Shown piece after piece: positions 10,925 through 18,278 of a DNA stretch of 64,000 nt. Location: the NCBI GenBank assembly GCA_016183565.1, contig JACPEJ010000001.1, positions 114,257 through 178,256 on the forward strand, given 5' to 3'. The stretch comes from Candidatus Blackburnbacteria bacterium. GTDB taxonomy: Bacteria > Patescibacteriota > Microgenomatia > UBA8517 > UBA10165. The notes under the pieces were generated by a model, which did no database searches, was not told the origin of the DNA, and saw only the letters and a list, made by a program, of their open reading frames with translations. Numbering within the stretch: the stretch's first letter is position 1; the number at the start of each line of letters is the position of its first letter. The translations under genes and the position numbers were made by a program.

Positions 10925-11158
10925 CTATTTTCTTTTCTTCAAAAGTTTTAAGAACTCATTAGTTGTTATATCGGCTTGTTTCAAAATTGCCCTTAAGGTA
11001 CCAGTTCTTACTGGACGGTTATGTCTAGGAACTACCGTGCGTCTTCCGTCTGAGTGTTTGAAAACCACATGGCTCCCTTTACCCGGTCTGGAAACAAAAT
11101 CTAATTGGAAAAGCACTCTTTCGATATTGCGTGGTCTGATTTGGGGCAATCTTGACAT
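10925..11158 (-). CDS. hicA: HicA toxin (mRNA interferase)
   Basis: 77 aa with LKLLKK...GFVFVSRPGKGSHVVFKHSDGRRTVVPRH...GTLRAILKQA, typical of HicA/YcfA. Confidence 0.85.
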   Translation of the reverse strand: MSRLPQIRPRNIERVLFQLDFVSRPGKGSHVVFKHSDGRRTVVPRHNRPVRTGTLRAILKQADITTNEFLKLLKKRK

Positions 11159-11167
11159 GTTGAAATC

Positions 11168-11440
11168 TCATGCAAAACGCAGAGAAAGTGGAGCCGTAAC
11201 CTGAGTCGTAGTAACAATATCTTGTTGGGTATGATCGACAGGTACAAGTTGCTTATCTTCAGCCAAACTATCTATATAAACTTGAATGGCTCCTTTTACG
11301 TTCTTAAGCGCTTCTTCAACAGTATCTCCGTCATCAGCTACACCAAGAGTGGGACAAAGTGCAGTAAAACCTGCTTTACCTGTTCCGGTTTGAGTGTCAG
11401 GACTAATAATAATACGGTAGTTTAAAACTTTTGTTCTCAT
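11168..11440 (-). CDS. hicB: HicB antitoxin (UPF0150 family)
   Basis: 90 aa with YRIIISPDTQTGTGKAGFTALCPTLGVADDGDTVEEALKNVKGAIQVYI, upstream of hicA. Confidence 0.8.
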   Translation of the reverse strand: MRTKVLNYRIIISPDTQTGTGKAGFTALCPTLGVADDGDTVEEALKNVKGAIQVYIDSLAEDKQLVPVDHTQQDIVTTTQVTAPLSLRFA

Positions 11441-11594: not shown

Positions 11595-12198
11595 TTAATA
11601 CCAAATTGTTTTTGTTCTGTGATACGGTTTGTCGTCCGGCGACTTAACTTGTCCTTTGAACCAAAATATTCCGTCAACTTTCGCCGCGTTAGCTTGTGGA
11701 AACTTTTCTTTCAAAATTTTTGTAGCAAGTTCTATCGCCCAAATTGTATTTGCGCGAATTTCTATTTCTTCGTCGCTACCGCTTGGAATTTCAATTTTGT
11801 TATCAATTTTATTGGTAAGCTCGTCTGTGTATTTCAATATCCCAAATTTTCTAAGTAATTGCGGGACTTTGAGAAATTTTTGACGGCTTAAAATCCAAAT
11901 CTCTACGAGTAGGTTGTTTGCCTTTGTGTTGCCAGATATTGAGTATATTCTCAAACAATTCCTCGTCCGAATAATTGATAGTATTTCCGCCTTGCAGTCC
12001 TGCTTTCGAAAGAGCTTTGTTCCAAGTTCCAAACCGCCTCAAAATAGTCGAGGGGTCATATTTACCGTCATTCTCAATATAAGTTTTCATTGAAAGCTTT
12101 TTTTGTGCAATCTTTCCCGACACTAAACGGACATCGTTTAGTAAGTCATCAGATGAAACAGGATTATTTTTTGGTGGTGTATATTGAAAGTTATTCAT
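11595..12198 (-). pseudogene. Frameshifted remnant of a protein with homing-endonuclease-associated repeats (HNH_repeat-like: ...ST I LRRFGTWNKAL SKAGL...)
   Basis: Two overlapping ORFs in different frames (11851..12198 and 11595..12032) share the repeat signature RRFGTWNKALSKAGL / KFGILKYTDEL, consistent with one gene broken by a frameshift. Confidence 0.4.
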
Positions 12199-12291: not shown

Positions 12292-12552
12292 TTACCCTCC
12301 ATTTTTAAGGTATCTTCTTAGCATCCCTTTTATTGTTTTTCTCCCATAACCACTTTTAAGATATTCCTCTCTATTTTTGGCATCAATTCTGTTGATAAAA
12401 GCTTCATAGAAGATTAATTTATATGGTCTAAACGGTTTTGTTGCTAAACTCTTTCCATTATTGTGTTCTTTAAATCTTTTCTTTAGGTTTGCAGTATAAC
12501 CTATGTATAAACTATTATTTTTTAAACTCTGCAGAATGTAAACGTAATTCAT
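12292..12552 (-). CDS. GIY-YIG nuclease family protein (second copy)
   Basis: MNYVYILQSLKNNSLYIGYTANLKKRFKEHN carries the GIY-YIG motif. Confidence 0.8.
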   Translation of the reverse strand: MNYVYILQSLKNNSLYIGYTANLKKRFKEHNNGKSLATKPFRPYKLIFYEAFINRIDAKNREEYLKSGYGRKTIKGMLRRYLKNGG

Positions 12553-12626
12553 TGGCGTGACGTAATAAATTCTGCGAATTTAAGCGTCACAGCAACGTTT
12601 AAATTGCTTTGCAATTTATTACGTTG

Positions 12627-12713
12627 CGGTGGGAGTGGGATTCGAACCCACGATACCTTGCGGTATACGGCTTTTCCAAAACCGCGCACTAGGCCAAACT
12701 ATGCGATCCCACC
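12627..12713 (-). tRNA. tRNA-Ser (anticodon GGA), class II with long variable arm
   Basis: Reverse complement GGTGGGATCGCATAGTTTGGCCTAGTGCGCGGTTTTGGAAAAGCCG...GTGGGTTCGAATCCCACTCCCACCG. Anticodon loop TTGGAAA. CCA is not encoded. Confidence 0.8.
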
Positions 12714-12718
12714 TTGTG

Positions 12719-12790
12719 CGCACCCACCCAGAATCGAACTGGGATCAGTTGCTCCGCAAGCAACTACTCTATCCGTTAAGCTATGGGTGC
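12719..12790 (-). tRNA. tRNA-Arg, anticodon read as GCG (unusual and should be verified)
   Basis: Reverse complement GCACCCATAGCTTAACGGATAGAGTAGTTGCTTGCGGAGCAACTGATCCCAGTTCGATTCTGGGTGGGTGCG. Anticodon stem GTTGC/GCAAC, loop TTGCGGA. The D-arm resembles bacterial tRNA-Arg. Confidence 0.65.
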
Positions 12791-12817
12791 AGGAATTTTT
12801 AGGAGATTTTTACGTTG

Positions 12818-12901
12818 CGGAGGGTACAGGATTCGAACCTGTGAGGGCTTGCGCCCACAAGTTTTCAAAACTTGCGCCATGAACCTCTCGGCCAACCCTC
12901 C
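12818..12901 (-). tRNA. tRNA-Ser (anticodon TGA)
   Basis: Reverse complement GGAGGGTTGGCCGAGAGGTTCATGGCGCAAGTTTTGAAAACTTGTGGGCGCAAGCCCTCACAGGTTCGAATCCTGTACCCTCCG. Anticodon loop TTTGAAA, long variable arm. Confidence 0.8.
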
Positions 12902-12906
12902 TAGGG

Positions 12907-12991
12907 CGGTGGAGGTGGGATTCGAACCCACGTGCCCCTTGCGGAGCGAGGCTTAGCAAGCCCCTGCCATCGGCCACTAGGCGACTCCACC
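12907..12991 (-). tRNA. tRNA-Ser (anticodon GCT)
   Basis: Reverse complement GGTGGAGTCGCCTAGTGGCCGATGGCAGGGGCTTGCTAAGCCTCGCTCCGCAAGGGGCACGTGGGTTCGAATCCCACCTCCACCG. Anticodon loop TTGCTAA, long variable arm. Confidence 0.8.
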
Positions 12992-14144: not shown

Positions 14145-14234
14145 GGTGGGATGTCAGAGTGGTTTATTGGCCAGGTCTCGAAAACCTTGGAGGGAGTAAT
14201 CCCTACGGAGGTTCAAATCCTCCTCCCACCGCCA
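14145..14234 (+). tRNA. tRNA-Ser (anticodon CGA), CCA encoded
   Basis: GGTGGGATGTCAGAGTGGTTTATTGGCCAGGTCTCGAAAACCTTGGAGGGAGTAATCCCTACGGAGGTTCAAATCCTCCTCCCACCGCCA. Anticodon loop CTCGAAA with a C27:U43 mismatch at the top of the stem; long variable arm. Confidence 0.75.
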
Positions 14235-14395
14235 ATTTTCAGAATTCGGATTTTGGGCGATTGTTGCCTCGCCCGCCCGTGTGCATACAACAGATTTACC
14301 CCTTTATTTTGCTTGCCGAGTTTATAATAATTTAGTATCATTGTAGTAAGGATTGGGACTTAATCTCATAGTATAACCTTATAACAATCATACAA

Positions 14396-14471
14396 CTCGT
14401 TTCAAAACTCGTAGATTAGTCTTATTAAATTTTTTGAAACGAGATTGGAGAAGCTGTTTTGAAACAGCTTC
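14396..14471. promoter_or_regulatory. Operator-like inverted repeats (C-box-like) upstream of the R-M operon
   Basis: ctcgtttcaaaa (14396-14407) faces ttttgaaacgag (14432-14443). A 22-bp palindrome gaagctgttttgaaacagcttc sits at 14450-14471. All three share a tttgaaac core. Confidence 0.5.
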
Positions 14472-14663
14472 ATAAAGAAAGCCCGAAACAAAAAGGGCGT
14501 TTCGCAGGATAGGTTGTCAAAAATAATTGAATCGGGAACAATTCAAAATCCGACTATTGACACCCTATCAAAAATCGCCAATGCATTAGATGCCAAGGTG
14601 GACGATTTAATCAAAAAACAATATGAGTCAAGTAGCAACATTATTTTCAAAAACAAAAATTGA
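14463..14663 (+). pseudogene. Start-less remnant of an XRE-family HTH controller (C) protein
   Basis: Frame translation NSFIKKARNKKGVSQDRLSKIIESGTIQNPTIDTLSKIANALDAKVDDLIKKQYESSSN shows a Cro/C1-type HTH but there is no ATG/GTG start after the in-frame TGA. The 3' end overlaps the M1 start by 41 nt. Confidence 0.5.
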
Positions 14664-15891
14664 CTATTCGTGGTCTTTTTCTGATAAAACTAGAAAAGAC
14701 ACCGCTTATATTACTCACGGATACCACCGCTACCCTGCAAAATTTATTCCTCAAATAGTTTCTCGTTTAGCGGAAAAATATACCAAAGACGGAGATTTAA
14801 TTGTTGATCCTTTTGGTGGTTGCGGAACAACGCTTGTTGAATCAAAAGTAATGGGAAGGCCGTCAGTTGGTGTTGATATAAACCCGGTAGCTGTTTTAAT
14901 TACAAAAGCAAAAATTACTCCAATTGATCCTCAAAAAATCGAGAAAGCATTTACCGTACTAAAAGCAAAACTGGGCACATACAACAAAGATACAAAAGTA
15001 AAAGCACCCGAGCATGAAAGAATTGATTACTGGTTTAAGCCCGAAGAGAAAAGAAAACTTGCTTTTATCTTTGCTGAAATTTCAAAATTGAAAGACCAAG
15101 ATATCAAAGATTTTTTCTTTTGCGGGTTTTCTAATATTTTGAAAAATTGCTCTATTTGGCTACAAAAAAGCAATAAGCCGACAAGAGATTTTGAAAAACA
15201 GCCATCAGAGCCAATGAAAACTTTTGCAAAACAAATAAAAATGATGTTAAGGGGCAATGCCCGATTATTTCAGTTGTTATCAGAAAAAGGTTATTTAAAA
15301 GTTTCAAGTAAAGTAGTTTGCACGGACGCAAGAACAATTCCCGCTAAAGATAACAGCGTTAGTTTGATAGTCACATCACCACCCTATGTTACCTCTTACG
15401 AATACGCTGATTTACACCAATTAACTGCTTTGTGGTTGGAATATACAAAAGATTTAAGTGGTTTTCGTAAAAGATTTATTGGTACTTCTTGTCACAGCAA
15501 AAAAGATTTAGTTTTTAATAGCGAACTTGCCGAAAAAATAAGGAACGAATTATTGAAAAAAGATAGGAAAACCGCCGAGGAAGTTTCGACATATTTTAGC
15601 GAAATGAATCAAGTTTTTATTGAAATGAAAAGAATGTTAAAAAAGGATGGAAAAACTTGTATTGTTATCGGCAATACCAACTTAAAAGGAGTTGAGATAT
15701 TAAATGCCGAAGTTTTTGCCGAGCAACTACAGAACTTAGGATTGAAAATCGCTGATATTATTAAAAGAGAAATCCCGTCAAAAAATTTGCCGTCTGTCAG
15801 AGATGAAAAAACAGGTAAGTTTGCGAGAATAAGTGATAAAAATAAAGTGTCAGCTTATCCAACGGAATATATTTTAATAATGGAAAAATAA
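14623..15891 (+). CDS. DNA methyltransferase (N6-adenine/N4-cytosine amino-MTase family; FxGxG motif I before SPPY motif IV)
   Basis: YPAKFIPQIV...GDLIVDPFGGCGTT (AdoMet motif X/I) near the N-terminus and LIVTSPPYVTSYEY (motif IV) around residue 250; 422 aa. Confidence 0.75.
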   Translation: MSQVATLFSKTKIDYSWSFSDKTRKDTAYITHGYHRYPAKFIPQIVSRLAEKYTKDGDLIVDPFGGCGTTLVESKVMGRPSVGVDINPVAVLITKAKITPIDPQKIEKAFTVLKAKLGTYNKDTKVKAPEHERIDYWFKPEEKRKLAFIFAEISKLKDQDIKDFFFCGFSNILKNCSIWLQKSNKPTRDFEKQPSEPMKTFAKQIKMMLRGNARLFQLLSEKGYLKVSSKVVCTDARTIPAKDNSVSLIVTSPPYVTSYEYADLHQLTALWLEYTKDLSGFRKRFIGTSCHSKKDLVFNSELAEKIRNELLKKDRKTAEEVSTYFSEMNQVFIEMKRMLKKDGKTCIVIGNTNLKGVEILNAEVFAEQLQNLGLKIADIIKREIPSKNLPSVRDEKTGKFARISDKNKVSAYPTEYILIMEK

Positions 15892-15927
15892 GCAAAGCTT
15901 GTTTTTCGCTTCGTTCAAAATAAAACT

Positions 15928-16596
15928 ATGACTATAAACGACCTTATCAAAATTTACGAGACAAAAAAGAAAAAATATGGCGTACAAGCATATCGCCATA
16001 TTTCAAATGTTTTGAAAGAAGCAAAGGCACAACATAAAAAAGATTTTTCAGGTGATGACCACGAGCAATCTTGGCGGGCTTTTAAGGGTAAGAATTTGGA
16101 GAAAATGATTGAGTATATTATTACCGATGAAGTCCGTGCTTTAGGGTTGCAGGTTGTAAACGGAAATAGTTTAGAGCGAACGAATGGCACAAACTTGTCT
16201 AGAGAATTAAGTTTAGTAAAGAGAAATTTGATTGTTGATTATGGCGAGTTTGGTTCGCATTTGCCTGATGTTGATTTGATAATTTATGACCCAAAAATGA
16301 GCAAAGTCGTTGCCGTTCTATCAAGCAAAGTAACTTTGCGAGAAAGAATCGCCCAAACTGGTTATTGGAAAATAAAACTTGCTTCCGACGAAGCGACAAA
16401 ACATATCAAGGTTTATTTCGTAACACCAGATGAAGACGGAACGCTAACTATTAAAAAACCAGCGAAAAAAGGACGAGCAATTGTTGAAGTAGACACAGAC
16501 GGCAGTTATGTTTTAAGCGAGACGGATATAGAGGAGAGCGACAAAGTTAAAATGTTTGATAAATTTATTGATGACCTTAAAAAATTACTCAAATAA
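15928..16596 (+). CDS. Candidate Type II restriction endonuclease (R subunit), inferred mainly from position between the two MTases
   Basis: 222-aa protein with no MTase or HTH motifs and a possible PD-(D/E)XK-like segment PDVDLIIYD...VVAVLSSKVTLRER, sandwiched between M1 and M2 on the same strand. Confidence 0.45.
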   Translation: MTINDLIKIYETKKKKYGVQAYRHISNVLKEAKAQHKKDFSGDDHEQSWRAFKGKNLEKMIEYIITDEVRALGLQVVNGNSLERTNGTNLSRELSLVKRNLIVDYGEFGSHLPDVDLIIYDPKMSKVVAVLSSKVTLRERIAQTGYWKIKLASDEATKHIKVYFVTPDEDGTLTIKKPAKKGRAIVEVDTDGSYVLSETDIEESDKVKMFDKFIDDLKKLLK

Positions 16597-16843
16597 TGTG
16601 ACAAAATCGCAAATACAATTGGCGTGGGGAAAAGTTATTAAAGAAACTCGTAAGATTCCCGATTGGAATACGCTTAAAAAAGATTCAAAACAATATCAAA
16701 AAGTTGTCACTCTTAGAGAGCTTATTTTGTTTTGTCAAGTGCTTTTAGGGAAGATAGAAATTGGTGAAAATGTTGCTTTTAATGAAATAATTTATAAAAA
16801 GACTATAAAATTTTATTGTGAGCAGATGAAAGAATATGTCTAA
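16556..16843 (+). CDS. Small ORF between the R and M2 genes (hypothetical; overlaps both neighbours)
   Basis: 95-aa ORF with start inside the R gene 3' end and stop 8 nt into M2. No recognisable domain. Confidence 0.25.
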   Translation: MINLLMTLKNYSNNVTKSQIQLAWGKVIKETRKIPDWNTLKKDSKQYQKVVTLRELILFCQVLLGKIEIGENVAFNEIIYKKTIKFYCEQMKEYV

Positions 16844-17522
16844 AGATTTGATTTTGGAATCAACAACTCTGTGGGATTATCCAACGCAAAATTATGGTGA
16901 TAAGCCACACGGAAACAATAAATATAATGGCGTAACACCTGCTTTTGTTCTTTGGAATTTGCTACAAAGATACACAAAAGAAGGCGATTTAGTTGTCGAT
17001 CCGATGTGCGGAAGCGGAACAACAATTGATGTTGCCAAAGAATTAAACCGAAAAGTAATCGGCTATGATTTAAACATTGTTCGCCCAGATGTTACCAAAA
17101 ATGACTCTCGAAAAATCCCACTTAAAGATAATTCTGTTGATTTTGTTTTTATTGATTCGCCATACTCGGACAATATCAAATATTCTGACGATGAAAAATG
17201 TATCGGCAAAATTTCTTGCGAAAAACCAGAATTTTATGACGAGTTAGAAAAAACCGCTTCAGAAATTGCAAGAATTTTGAAGCTCGGCAAAGTCATGGGT
17301 TGGGTTATTGCCGACCAATGGATTAAAAAGAAATTTACAGCAGTTGGATTTTTGCTTTGGCAAAGATTGGAAAAATATTTTGAGCCAATGGATATTGTTT
17401 GTTTAACAAGACATAACCAAACATCAAACACTGGTGTTTGGCATAACAGAGCGAGGCAGTTCAATTTTTATTTGAGAGGTTTTAAGTATTTGTTTATAAT
17501 GAAGAAATCCGAAAAGAATTAG
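16836..17522 (+). CDS. Second DNA methyltransferase (small amino-MTase; DPMCGSGTT motif I and DSPY motif IV)
   Basis: PAFVLWNLLQRYTKEGDLVVDPMCGSGTT then VDFVFIDSPYSD; 228 aa. Confidence 0.7.
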   Translation: MSKDLILESTTLWDYPTQNYGDKPHGNNKYNGVTPAFVLWNLLQRYTKEGDLVVDPMCGSGTTIDVAKELNRKVIGYDLNIVRPDVTKNDSRKIPLKDNSVDFVFIDSPYSDNIKYSDDEKCIGKISCEKPEFYDELEKTASEIARILKLGKVMGWVIADQWIKKKFTAVGFLLWQRLEKYFEPMDIVCLTRHNQTSNTGVWHNRARQFNFYLRGFKYLFIMKKSEKN

Positions 17523-17702: not shown

Positions 17703-17740
17703 TTGACAGGCTGTAATAATTCTGTAATAATTGTTATATA
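17703..17740 (+). promoter_or_regulatory. Consensus-like promoter (TTGACA 17703-17708, -10 near 17726-17738) overlapped by a tandem 11-bp direct repeat ctgtaataatt x2 (17711-17732); putative Phd/RelE operator
   Basis: Read directly. The repeats lie between the -35 element and the phd ATG at 17740, leaving little or no leader. Confidence 0.5.
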
Positions 17741-18018
17741 TGGCACAATTAATTGCTAATGAAGATTTTACCAGCATCCAGAAAGCACAGGCAGGCTTAA
17801 CCAGGGTTTTTAAAAAAGCCGAAAAACGTGGAAAATTTGTTAGGGTGATGAGGAATAATGAGCCTGTGGGAGTACTAGTGCCCAATCGGGTTTGGGAGTC
17901 CTTTTTAGAAGATTTAGAGGCCCTTTCTTCTGAGAATTATTTAAAAAGGATTGCCAAATCAAGAGCAGATAAAAAAACTTACTCTATGGAGGAAGTTAAA
18001 AAGAGATTGGGTGTCTAA
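17740..18018 (+). CDS. Phd/YefM family antitoxin
   Basis: MAQLIANEDFTSIQKAQAGLTRVFKKAEKRGKFVRVMRNNEPVGVLVP; stop overlaps the relE start (ATGTAA-type coupling at 18018). Confidence 0.75.
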   Translation: MAQLIANEDFTSIQKAQAGLTRVFKKAEKRGKFVRVMRNNEPVGVLVPNRVWESFLEDLEALSSENYLKRIAKSRADKKTYSMEEVKKRLGV

Positions 18019-18278
18019 TGTACCAGATTAAGTTTAAGGCTTCAGCAGACAAAAGATTTTCTAAGTTCCCCAGAGATGTTCAGATAAGAGTTATACAAAA
18101 ATTAGAGTTCTTTTTATCTCAATCGGACCCTTTGATTTACGCAGAAATGTTAACAAACCCTAGAATTGGTACATATCGTTTTAGGGTTGGTGATTATCGC
18201 GTAGTTTTTGATTTGGAAGATGATGAGACTATTGTGATTGTGGATATTGATCATAGGAAAAATATTTATCGGCGATGA
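18018..18278 (+). CDS. RelE/ParE family toxin
   Basis: GTYRFRVGDYRVVFDLEDDETIVIVDIDHRKNIY. Confidence 0.8.
   Translation: MYQIKFKASADKRFSKFPRDVQIRVIQKLEFFLSQSDPLIYAEMLTNPRIGTYRFRVGDYRVVFDLEDDETIVIVDIDHRKNIYRR

What the first reader, a model, noticed from the sequence alone, without database searches (positions are those of the whole stretch)
14623..17522. Type II R-M operon with two amino-methyltransferases flanking a small candidate endonuclease
The gene order is M1 (422 aa, DPFGGCGTT then SPPY), R candidate (222 aa), small ORF (95 aa), M2 (228 aa, DPMCGSGTT then DSPY), all co-oriented with short spacers or overlaps. Two separate MTases imply an asymmetric (Type IIS-like) site, or a ssDNA/hemimethylation-specific second methylase as in DpnII-type systems. 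The 222-aa middle protein is small for a IIS enzyme and is called R only by position and a weak PD-(D/E)XK-like segment. In both MTases motif I precedes motif IV.
Basis: partly seen in the sequence, partly recalled or inferred. Interest (0 to 1): 0.55.

Follow-up and report, generated by a model that had tools for sequence, protein, structure and literature searches.

The report
Two-methylase restriction operon with cargo slot
This is a real restriction-modification operon whose cutting enzyme belongs to the well-studied CCGG-cutting family, and the small gene between the enzyme and the second methylase sits in a slot that, in related genomes, holds many different anti-phage genes.

The parts
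14295..14345 (+). Conserved upstream leader with a promoter-like site (TTGCCG-17 nt-TATCAT at 14313-14341)
   Evidence: DNA is shared with L001 and L002 from about 14295 onward. The promoter-like match is, which is a consensus match only; the number of such sites in the region is not above chance.
14400..14621 (+). Decayed controller (C-protein, XRE-type HTH) gene
   Evidence: This stretch is homologous to the intact 73-aa HTH gene of L001 (4505-4726), whose stop overlaps the M1 ATG. The L001 protein matches PADLOC Control_protein at 3.2e-8. In the window the start region is replaced, 30 bp are deleted inside the HTH, and the stop TAA has become CAA at 14619-14621. Only a 49-aa residual ORF remains at 14514-14663.
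14623..15891 (+). M1: amino-methyltransferase with a large insert between motif I (res 62-70) and SPPY (res 252-255); alpha-like 'topology D'
   Evidence: The Pfam PF01555 hit (8.7e-23) is split, with the C-terminal part of the profile matching the N-terminus of the protein. PADLOC MTase_II PDLC03322 matches collinearly over the full length at 8.4e-62. Motif positions are. dN/dS is 0.088.
15928..16596 (+). R: BsaWI/CCGG-family PD-(D/E)XK restriction endonuclease
16598..16843 (+). ORF3: 81-aa basic helical protein of unknown function; the variable cargo in the R-M2 slot
   Evidence: GTG start 1 nt after the R stop; its stop overlaps the M2 ATG. Only 30 homologue clusters exist among 5.8 billion proteins. 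dN/dS is 0.16-0.34. The AF2 model is a helical bundle with pLDDT 76.5. It has no specific fold, Pfam, PADLOC or PHROGs match.
16836..17522 (+). M2: compact amino-methyltransferase with motif I (res 55-63) followed about 44 residues later by DSPY (res 107-110) and no inserted recognition domain; 'topology E'
   Evidence: Pfam PF01555 at 3.1e-21. PADLOC MTase_II PDLC03376 (249-position profile) at 2.2e-29. DSPY is present in every M2 examined. dN/dS is 0.056. M2 pairs alone with R in L069, L073, L074, L075 and L079.

Best explanation
This is a Type II restriction-modification module. R is a compact BsaWI/CCGG-family endonuclease that most likely acts as a dimer or tetramer on a palindromic or pseudo-palindromic site with a CCGG core, possibly interrupted as CCNGG or CCWGG. 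It has a PD...K active site (E58, D114, K134) and a recognition helix that begins R138-E139-R140. Two permuted amino-methyltransferases each protect host DNA against R. M1 has a large inserted recognition domain and an SPPY motif, which suggests N4-cytosine methylation. M2 is a minimal enzyme without a recognition domain, carries an unusual but invariant DSPY motif, and is the partner most tightly co-conserved with R. Shown here: gene identities, fold, motifs, purifying selection, the conserved M1-R-M2 order, and single-methylase variants in other genomes. Inferred: that both methylases modify the same site; that M2 may also act on single-stranded DNA, as M.BcnIA and DpnA do; and the nature of the site. 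The junction between R and M2 is a slot into which unrelated, co-oriented genes, many of them known or candidate anti-phage genes, are embedded with almost no intergenic DNA. ORF3 is this window's cargo. The controller gene that precedes M1 in some relatives is a pseudogene here, as it is absent from most relatives.
Against: The recognition site is not determined. Site avoidance is inconclusive: no CCGG hexamer stands out. CCWGG is the most depleted pentamer in pooled carrier flanks (O/E 0.74), but other W-centred quasi-palindromes rank next to it and the window itself shows none (O/E 0.96). The family's second catalytic acid, 10-14 residues after the lysine, is missing; those positions are T144 and W147, with Q143 and D116 as unproven candidates. 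BsaWI's outer-base reader K85 aligns with A51. The M1-only case is a single locus, and only 6 kb on each side was seen, so M2 could lie elsewhere in that genome. That both methylases modify the same site, and that M2 acts on single strands, are inferences. M2 was not compared directly with M1.BcnI. DSPY departs from the usual (D/N/S)PP(Y/F) motif, so M2's activity is supported only by conservation.
Confidence: 0.8

Rival explanations
1. The site is asymmetric (Type IIS-like) and each methylase modifies one strand, so both are required.
For: Two separate methylases are typical of Type IIS and some asymmetric Type II systems (general knowledge). Both are retained in most loci.
Against: R is a single-domain CCGG-family enzyme, and all structurally characterised members of that family cut palindromic or pseudo-palindromic sites as dimers or tetramers. 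Intact R occurs with M2 alone in at least five loci and with M1 alone in one.
Confidence: 0.06
2. M1 and M2 modify different bases within the same R site, for example N4-cytosine by M1 (SPPY) and N6-adenine or another cytosine by M2 (DSPY). Each mark alone would be sufficient to block R. There would be no single-strand role.
For: The catalytic motifs differ (S versus D as first residue). The topologies differ. Either methylase can pair alone with R.
Against: There is no direct evidence on the target base. The best sequence matches of both enzymes in the PDB include N4-cytosine enzymes, but only through the motif I region. If the site is CCGG or CCSGG it contains no adenine.
Confidence: 0.3
3. 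M2 is not a cognate DNA methylase of R. It would be an unrelated orphan or RNA methyltransferase, or it would belong with the cargo.
For: Weak hits to Trm11/UPF0020-type RNA methyltransferase models. M2 lies beyond the cargo. Its motif IV is unusual.
Against: M2 is present whether or not cargo is present, in 73 of 73 informative metagenome loci. R+M2 is the minimal pair in distant lineages. M2 is more conserved than M1 and tracks R. Its best matches are Type II DNA methylase models.
Confidence: 0.05
4. ORF3 is a regulator of the R-M module, a functional replacement for the decayed controller, and not an independent defence-related cargo gene.
For: It is small, basic (pI 9.4) and helical. It is translationally coupled between R and M2. 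The window's own controller gene is decayed. In the L082 mosaic, ORF3 persists next to M2 remnants.
Against: It has no HTH or other DNA-binding signature. It occupies the same slot as about 27 unrelated families, including complete defence systems. L081 has both ORF3 and a LexA-like regulator. Most loci have neither a controller nor ORF3.
Confidence: 0.2

Closest known systems
BsaWI (W/CCGGW) and the CCGG family of Type II restriction endonucleases (AgeI, PfoI, PspGI, NgoMIV, Bse634I, Cfr10I, SgrAI, Ecl18kI, EcoRII-C, Kpn2I)
   Different: It is only 14-18% identical to any solved member and shorter (222 aa against 258-311). No acidic residue occupies the family's second catalytic position. BsaWI's outer-base reader K85 is an alanine here, so the flanking specificity probably differs from W/CCGGW.
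BcnI R-M system (CCSGG) with M.BcnIA (M1.BcnI) and M.BcnIB
   Same: Both have two amino-methyltransferases that differ by circular permutation or topology alongside one endonuclease. M2 meets the spacing criterion of the compact 'topology E' defined on M1.BcnI. Comparative genomics here suggests either methylase can suffice.
   Different: R.BcnI is not a CCGG-family enzyme (from my own knowledge, not tested here). Here both methylases have motif I before motif IV. Here the compact methylase appears to be the core partner, whereas M.BcnIA is reported as dispensable. Direct sequence similarity of M2 to M1.BcnI was not tested.
DpnII system (DpnM, DpnA, DpnB)
   Same: One endonuclease is paired with two methylases of the same specificity, one of which can act on single-stranded DNA to protect incoming DNA (PMC3573125).
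   Different: The enzyme families and the site (GATC, m6A) differ. No competence-linked regulation is evident here. The single-strand activity of M2 is only a hypothesis.
Defence genes embedded in Type I R-M, BREX, DISARM and Hma loci (PrrC in EcoprrI; DarTG2 between hsdS and hsdR; Septu in Hma; 'guilt-by-embedding')
   Same: Unrelated, co-oriented defence genes lie between the genes of a host defence system. Cargo types overlap (Septu, OLD/ABC ATPases, PADLOC PDC families).
   Different: The host here is a three-gene Type II M-R-M operon, a class not analysed in Payne et al. 2024. The cargo is packed with 0-15 nt junctions at one fixed position, between the R stop and the M2 start.

Membership tests
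BsaWI/CCGG-family Type II restriction endonuclease | Match to Pfam PF18643 (RE_BsaWI) above the gathering score | tested here: met
   114.6 bits against a cutoff of 26.2, E=2.8e-33, residues 93-196.
BsaWI/CCGG-family Type II restriction endonuclease | PD-(D/E)XK fold closest to solved CCGG-family enzymes | tested here: met
BsaWI/CCGG-family Type II restriction endonuclease | Catalytic E, PD and K residues (BsaWI E92, D145, K165) | tested here: met
   These align to E58, D114 and K134, all invariant in 83 sequences.
BsaWI/CCGG-family Type II restriction endonuclease | Second acidic residue (D/E, or Q in Kpn2I) 10-14 residues after the catalytic lysine | tested here: inconclusive
   The aligned positions are T144 and W147. 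Invariant Q143 or D116 might substitute. Model coordinates could not be inspected.
BsaWI/CCGG-family Type II restriction endonuclease | R-(D/E)R CCGG-recognition motif at the N-terminus of the helix after the lysine | tested here: met
   R138-E139-R140 aligns to BsaWI R169-D170-R171. The predicted helix spans 138-152. E139 and R140 are invariant and R138 nearly so.
BsaWI/CCGG-family Type II restriction endonuclease | Cleaves DNA at a CCGG-core site | not testable with these tools
   Site-avoidance analysis was inconclusive.
Type II restriction-modification system | Separate endonuclease and DNA methyltransferase genes that are adjacent and co-conserved | tested here: met
   M1-R-M2 is co-linear in most of 160 related loci. 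PADLOC MTase_II matches both methylases.
Alpha-like 'topology D' amino-methyltransferase (M1) | SAM motif precedes the catalytic motif by more than 150 residues, with an inserted recognition domain | tested here: met
   Motif I ends at residue 70 and SPPY starts at 252.
'Topology E' amino-methyltransferase, M1.BcnI-like (M2) | Same profile group, SAM motif precedes the catalytic motif by fewer than 100 residues, no inserted recognition domain | tested here: met
   Motif I ends at residue 63 and DSPY starts at 107.
'Topology E' amino-methyltransferase, M1.BcnI-like (M2) | Sequence or structural similarity to M1.BcnI or M4.BstF5I themselves | not tested
Source names of M2 relatives were uninformative.
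DpnII/BcnI-type systems with a single-strand-capable second methylase | Two methylases with the same specificity | tested here: inconclusive
   This is inferred only from natural R+M2 and M1+R variants.
DpnII/BcnI-type systems with a single-strand-capable second methylase | One methylase acts on single-stranded DNA | not testable with these tools
   This needs a biochemical assay.
Type IIS restriction-modification | Asymmetric site, with an endonuclease that has separate recognition and cleavage domains | tested here: not met
   R is a 222-aa single catalytic domain of the CCGG family. Single-methylase variants exist.
C-protein-controlled R-M | Intact small HTH controller gene upstream of the operon | tested here: not met
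   It is a pseudogene in the window. It is intact in L001 and six other loci and absent from most.
Defence-system embedding (guilt-by-embedding) | Unrelated co-oriented genes, often defence genes, located between genes of a host defence system | tested here: met
   77 of 148 loci are occupied, by 28 families including Old, PtuA and PDC-S45.

The most novel reading that the evidence does not exclude
The M1-R-M2 module may be an ancient carrier found across many bacterial phyla and some archaea, whose R-M2 junction works as a dedicated cassette slot for immunity genes. Unrelated defence genes would be swapped in and out at one fixed point, co-transcribed and translationally coupled with the restriction system. 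The two strongly conserved flanking genes would serve as recombination arms, and the two redundant methylases would make rearrangements at the junction non-lethal. On this reading ORF3, the commonest cargo, and the other unannotated small cargo families are new defence or defence-regulating proteins.
Probability: 0.4. Interest if true: 0.7.

Novelty: new variant of a known kind. Interest (0 to 1): 0.5.

Why it matters
On its own the R-M system is an ordinary new member of a known family; NCBI already names its relatives 'BsaWI family type II restriction enzyme'. Three things go beyond that. First, a Type II operon acts as a host for embedded defence genes at one precise junction. This extends 'guilt-by-embedding' beyond Type I, BREX, DISARM and Hma loci, and yields about 15 unannotated candidate families, including the window's ORF3. 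Second, the endonuclease is under unusually strong purifying selection (dN/dS about 0.04, with saturated synonymous sites) across many bacterial phyla and some archaea, which is atypical for restriction enzymes. Third, the module pairs a recognition-domain-bearing methylase with a minimal one, offering a natural test of whether compact M1.BcnI-like enzymes are stand-alone protective methylases. Many carriers are Patescibacteria, which are reported to depend on DNA uptake (from my own knowledge, not tested here), so a single-strand-capable methylase would be biologically relevant.

Tried and rejected
1. Direct sequence search of R against the PDB found nothing relevant. A family profile was needed to reach BsaWI.
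2. Recognition site by site avoidance: neither the window alone nor 521 kb of pooled carrier flanks gave a discriminating signal. CCWGG depletion is shared with other W-centred quasi-palindromes and is absent from the window itself.
3. Specificity from names of M2 relatives: the names were uninformative.
4. Methylome literature for carriers: nothing relevant found. The primary BcnI paper is not held.
6. Recent horizontal sweep as the reason for 90% protein identity: rejected, because dS is 0.7 to saturated.
7. Swapped recognition domain in the divergent M1 class: rejected, because the proteins are collinear and diverged throughout.
8. tRNA-linked integration with att repeats, or repeats flanking the cargo: none found.
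9. ORF3 as a general partner of other restriction enzymes (L082): rejected, because that locus is a decayed mosaic that still carries M2 remnants.
Full report
**Observation.** The four co-oriented ORFs are present as described: M1 14623-15891 (422 aa), R 15928-16596 (222 aa), a small ORF, and M2 16836-17522 (228 aa). M1 has DPFGGCGTT at residues 62-70 and SPPY at 252-255. M2 has DPMCGSGTT at 55-63 and DSPY at 107-110. Motif I therefore precedes motif IV in both. The small ORF should be read from GTG 16598 (81 aa), one base after the R stop, with its stop overlapping the M2 ATG. Most of its 30 homologue clusters are called at 81 aa, and nearly all begin MTKSQIQ or MTKKQ.

**The endonuclease.** R matches Pfam PF18643 (RE_BsaWI) at E=2.8e-33, 114.6 bits against a cutoff of 26.2. 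A direct search against PDB sequences failed. A profile of 19 relatives found BsaWI (4ZSF) as the only hit.

- In that alignment, BsaWI's active-site residues E92, D145 and K165 and its CCGG-recognition residues R169-D170-R171 (roles from PMC4652773) correspond to E58, D114, K134 and R138-E139-R140.
- E58, D114, K134, E139 and R140 are invariant, and R138 nearly so, in alignments of 19 and 83 sequences.
- An AlphaFold2 model built on 83 sequences is confident (pLDDT 90.8, pTM 0.86).
- The predicted helix 138-152 begins with the RER motif, as in the family.

Two features differ from BsaWI. The second catalytic acid (BsaWI D175, NgoMIV E201) has no acidic counterpart: the aligned residues are T144 and W147, with invariant Q143 and D116 as candidates, and Kpn2I is reported to use Q. 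BsaWI's outer-base reader K85 aligns with A51. R is therefore a CCGG-family enzyme, but its flanking or central-base specificity cannot be read from the sequence.

**The methyltransferases.** Both pass Pfam PF01555, with the C-terminal (SAM-binding) part of the profile matching their N-termini. They are thus circular permutations of the beta-class order. PDB sequence matches reach beta-class N4/N6 enzymes only through that region.

- In the topology scheme of bioRxiv 10.1101/2023.12.13.571470, M1 fits topology D: the SAM motif is followed, after more than 150 residues that contain a recognition domain, by the catalytic motif.
- M2 fits topology E: fewer than 100 residues between the motifs and no inserted recognition domain. 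The experimentally confirmed examples of topology E are M1.BcnI and M4.BstF5I.
- PADLOC Type II methylase models match M1 collinearly over its full length (8.4e-62) and M2 against a 249-position profile (2.2e-29).
- DSPY is present in every M2 examined.

**Comparative genomics.** R has about 4,000 relatives at 90%-cluster level. Genome hits come from Patescibacteria, Ignavibacteriota, Elusimicrobiota, Chloroflexota, Planctomycetota, Gammaproteobacteria, Altarchaeum, Nitrososphaerales and others, at 68-96% identity. In about 70 of 80 genome loci the order M1-R-M2 is kept. DNA similarity to the window runs exactly from the M1 start to the R stop and from the M2 start to the M2 stop. It falls to 2 loci across ORF3, and none of the flanking genes is shared.

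The high protein identity is not a recent sweep. Even against the closest locus, dS is 0.7-0.9, and it is usually saturated. The median dN/dS is 0.037 for R, 0.056 for M2 and 0.088 for M1. M1 is the fastest-evolving part: a class of 18 loci is only about 50% identical, collinear, and most diverged in residues 101-240. R and M2 stay near 81% in those loci. The module is AT-rich relative to the window (33.9% against 41.3% GC).

**Why two methylases.** Intact R occurs with M2 alone between housekeeping genes in three Chloroflexota loci (L069, L073, L079). It also occurs with an N-terminally extended M2 upstream of R (L074, L075). In one gammaproteobacterial chromosome, M1 and R are followed directly by housekeeping genes (L064).

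Each methylase therefore seems able to partner R. Together with the dimeric or tetrameric, palindrome-cutting nature of the family, this argues against an asymmetric Type IIS-like site. Two-methylase systems with one specificity are known: DpnII with DpnM and DpnA, and BcnI with M.BcnIA and M.BcnIB. In both, one enzyme also methylates single strands. M2 shares the topology of M.BcnIA, so a single-strand role is a reasonable hypothesis, but it is untested. Unlike the reported dispensability of M.BcnIA, M2 here looks like the core partner.

**The cargo slot.** The distance from the R stop to the M2 start ranges from about 0 to 2.3 kb.

| Sample | Informative loci | Slot occupied |
|---|---|---|
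| Genome contigs | 75 | 31 |
| Metagenome contigs, R at least 91% identical | 73 | 46 |
| Combined | 148 | 77 |

In the metagenome sample, 27 loci have R and M2 adjacent and none lacks M2. The inserted ORFs are co-oriented. They start 2-15 nt after the R stop and end at or overlapping the M2 start, with no shared repeats. They fall into 28 unrelated protein families, about 22 cassettes:

- an OLD nuclease (PADLOC Old, 1.8e-74);
- Septu PtuA (1.4e-167) followed by an HNH ORF cut by the contig end (not itself tested as PtuB);
- an AriA-like ABC ATPase;
- HNH nucleases;
- Schlafen AlbA_2 proteins;
- an MBL hydrolase (PDC-M48B, 3.5e-37) with a membrane protein;
- a trypsin-like protease (PDC-S45, 5e-102);
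- many families with no annotation.

Many different cargos occur on backbones whose R is more than 90% identical, so cargo turns over faster than the backbone. Embedding of defence genes is documented for Type I R-M (PrrC, DarTG2), BREX, DISARM and Hma. A Type II operon as host was not part of that analysis.

**ORF3.** It is the commonest cargo (13 loci) but a rare family overall, with 30 clusters, all apparently from Patescibacteria. It is under purifying selection (dN/dS 0.16-0.34), basic (pI 9.4), and predicted to be a small helical bundle (pLDDT 76.5). It has no informative structural or family match. In L081 it sits in the same slot. In L082-L084 it sits in a decayed mosaic that still carries M2 remnants. 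Its function is unknown. The two leading options are a defence-related accessory protein (by embedding) and a small regulator.

**Regulation and setting.** In L001, an intact 73-aa XRE-type HTH gene ends at the M1 start and matches PADLOC Control_protein. The homologous stretch of the window (about 14400-14621) has lost its start, carries a 30-bp deletion in the HTH, and has its stop mutated. Such a controller abuts M1 in only 7 of 59 loci, and a LexA-like regulator takes its place in L068 and L081. The module lies 60 bp downstream of tRNA-Ser(CGA) without att-like repeats. It sits in a variable stretch with HicAB, Phd/ParE, GIY-YIG and homing-endonuclease-repeat genes.

**Specificity.** It could not be determined. 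Site avoidance in the window is not significant (ACCGGT O/E 0.47 on about 2 sites). In 521 kb of pooled carrier flanks, CCWGG is the most depleted pentamer (O/E 0.74, rank 1 of 512). However, GCWGC and GGWCC rank next to it, and the window itself shows no CCWGG depletion.

**Verdict.** The asymmetric-site idea is not supported. The system is a new member of a known endonuclease family in an M-R-M arrangement with known precedents. The features that raise its interest are the fixed cargo slot inside a Type II operon and the unusually strong, long-term conservation of the endonuclease.

Noticed in passing
window 14145-14234: tRNA-Ser(CGA) ends about 60 bp before the conserved leader of the module. 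No direct repeat of the tRNA 3' end was found downstream, so there is no evidence of integrase-type insertion.
   Followed up: partly
window 11595-12198 (- strand): A C-terminal fragment of a queuosine-salvage gene (PF10343, 1.7e-22) overlaps an ORF with a homing-endonuclease-associated repeat (PF18780, 1.4e-15). This may be a gene disrupted by a mobile endonuclease.
   Followed up: no
window 10925-11440 (-) and 17731-18278 (+): HicA/HicB and Phd/ParE toxin-antitoxin pairs flank the region. A GIY-YIG gene (12292-12552) and a cluster of four tRNAs (12626-12991) lie between the HicAB pair and the module. The R-M module thus sits in a small variable, mobile-element-rich stretch.
   Followed up: partly
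L068 4072-4731; L081 2406-3047: A LexA-like protein (LexA_DNA_bind + Peptidase_S24) occupies the controller position directly upstream of M1. This suggests that some versions of the module may be under SOS-type, self-cleaving repressor control.
   Followed up: no
L074 217-1626; L075 4750-5973: M2 is fused to a 180-240-residue N-terminal extension and lies upstream of R. The extension starts with an HTH-like segment in L074. This is reminiscent of methylases that autoregulate through an N-terminal HTH.
   Followed up: no
L064 4393-4713: An ORF just upstream of M1 repeats the N-terminal approximately 60 residues of M1 (a partial duplication) in the one locus that has M1+R without M2.
   Followed up: no
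L082 984-2989: This is a mosaic locus. M1 and R are replaced by an NmeDI_C-domain gene and a HinfI-family fragment, while ORF3 and remnants of M2 remain. It shows recombination on the left side of the slot.
   Followed up: partly
public annotations of R homologues: Several NCBI and UniRef records name this endonuclease 'DNA modification methylase', an apparent misannotation. PADLOC v2 has no model that detects it, so automated tools may report the two methylases as orphans.
   Followed up: partly
L034, L037, L038, L042, L050, L052, L057, L076, L154, L158, L160 (R-M2 gap): A second small cargo family (80-97 aa, starting MKYLLF...) is the next most common occupant of the slot. It has no match in Pfam, PADLOC or PHROGs.
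   Followed up: partly
window 14774-14848 and 16966-17040: A 75-nt direct repeat at 72% identity marks the motif I regions of M1 and M2. The two methylases share a paralogous SAM-binding half (about 30% protein identity).
   Followed up: yes
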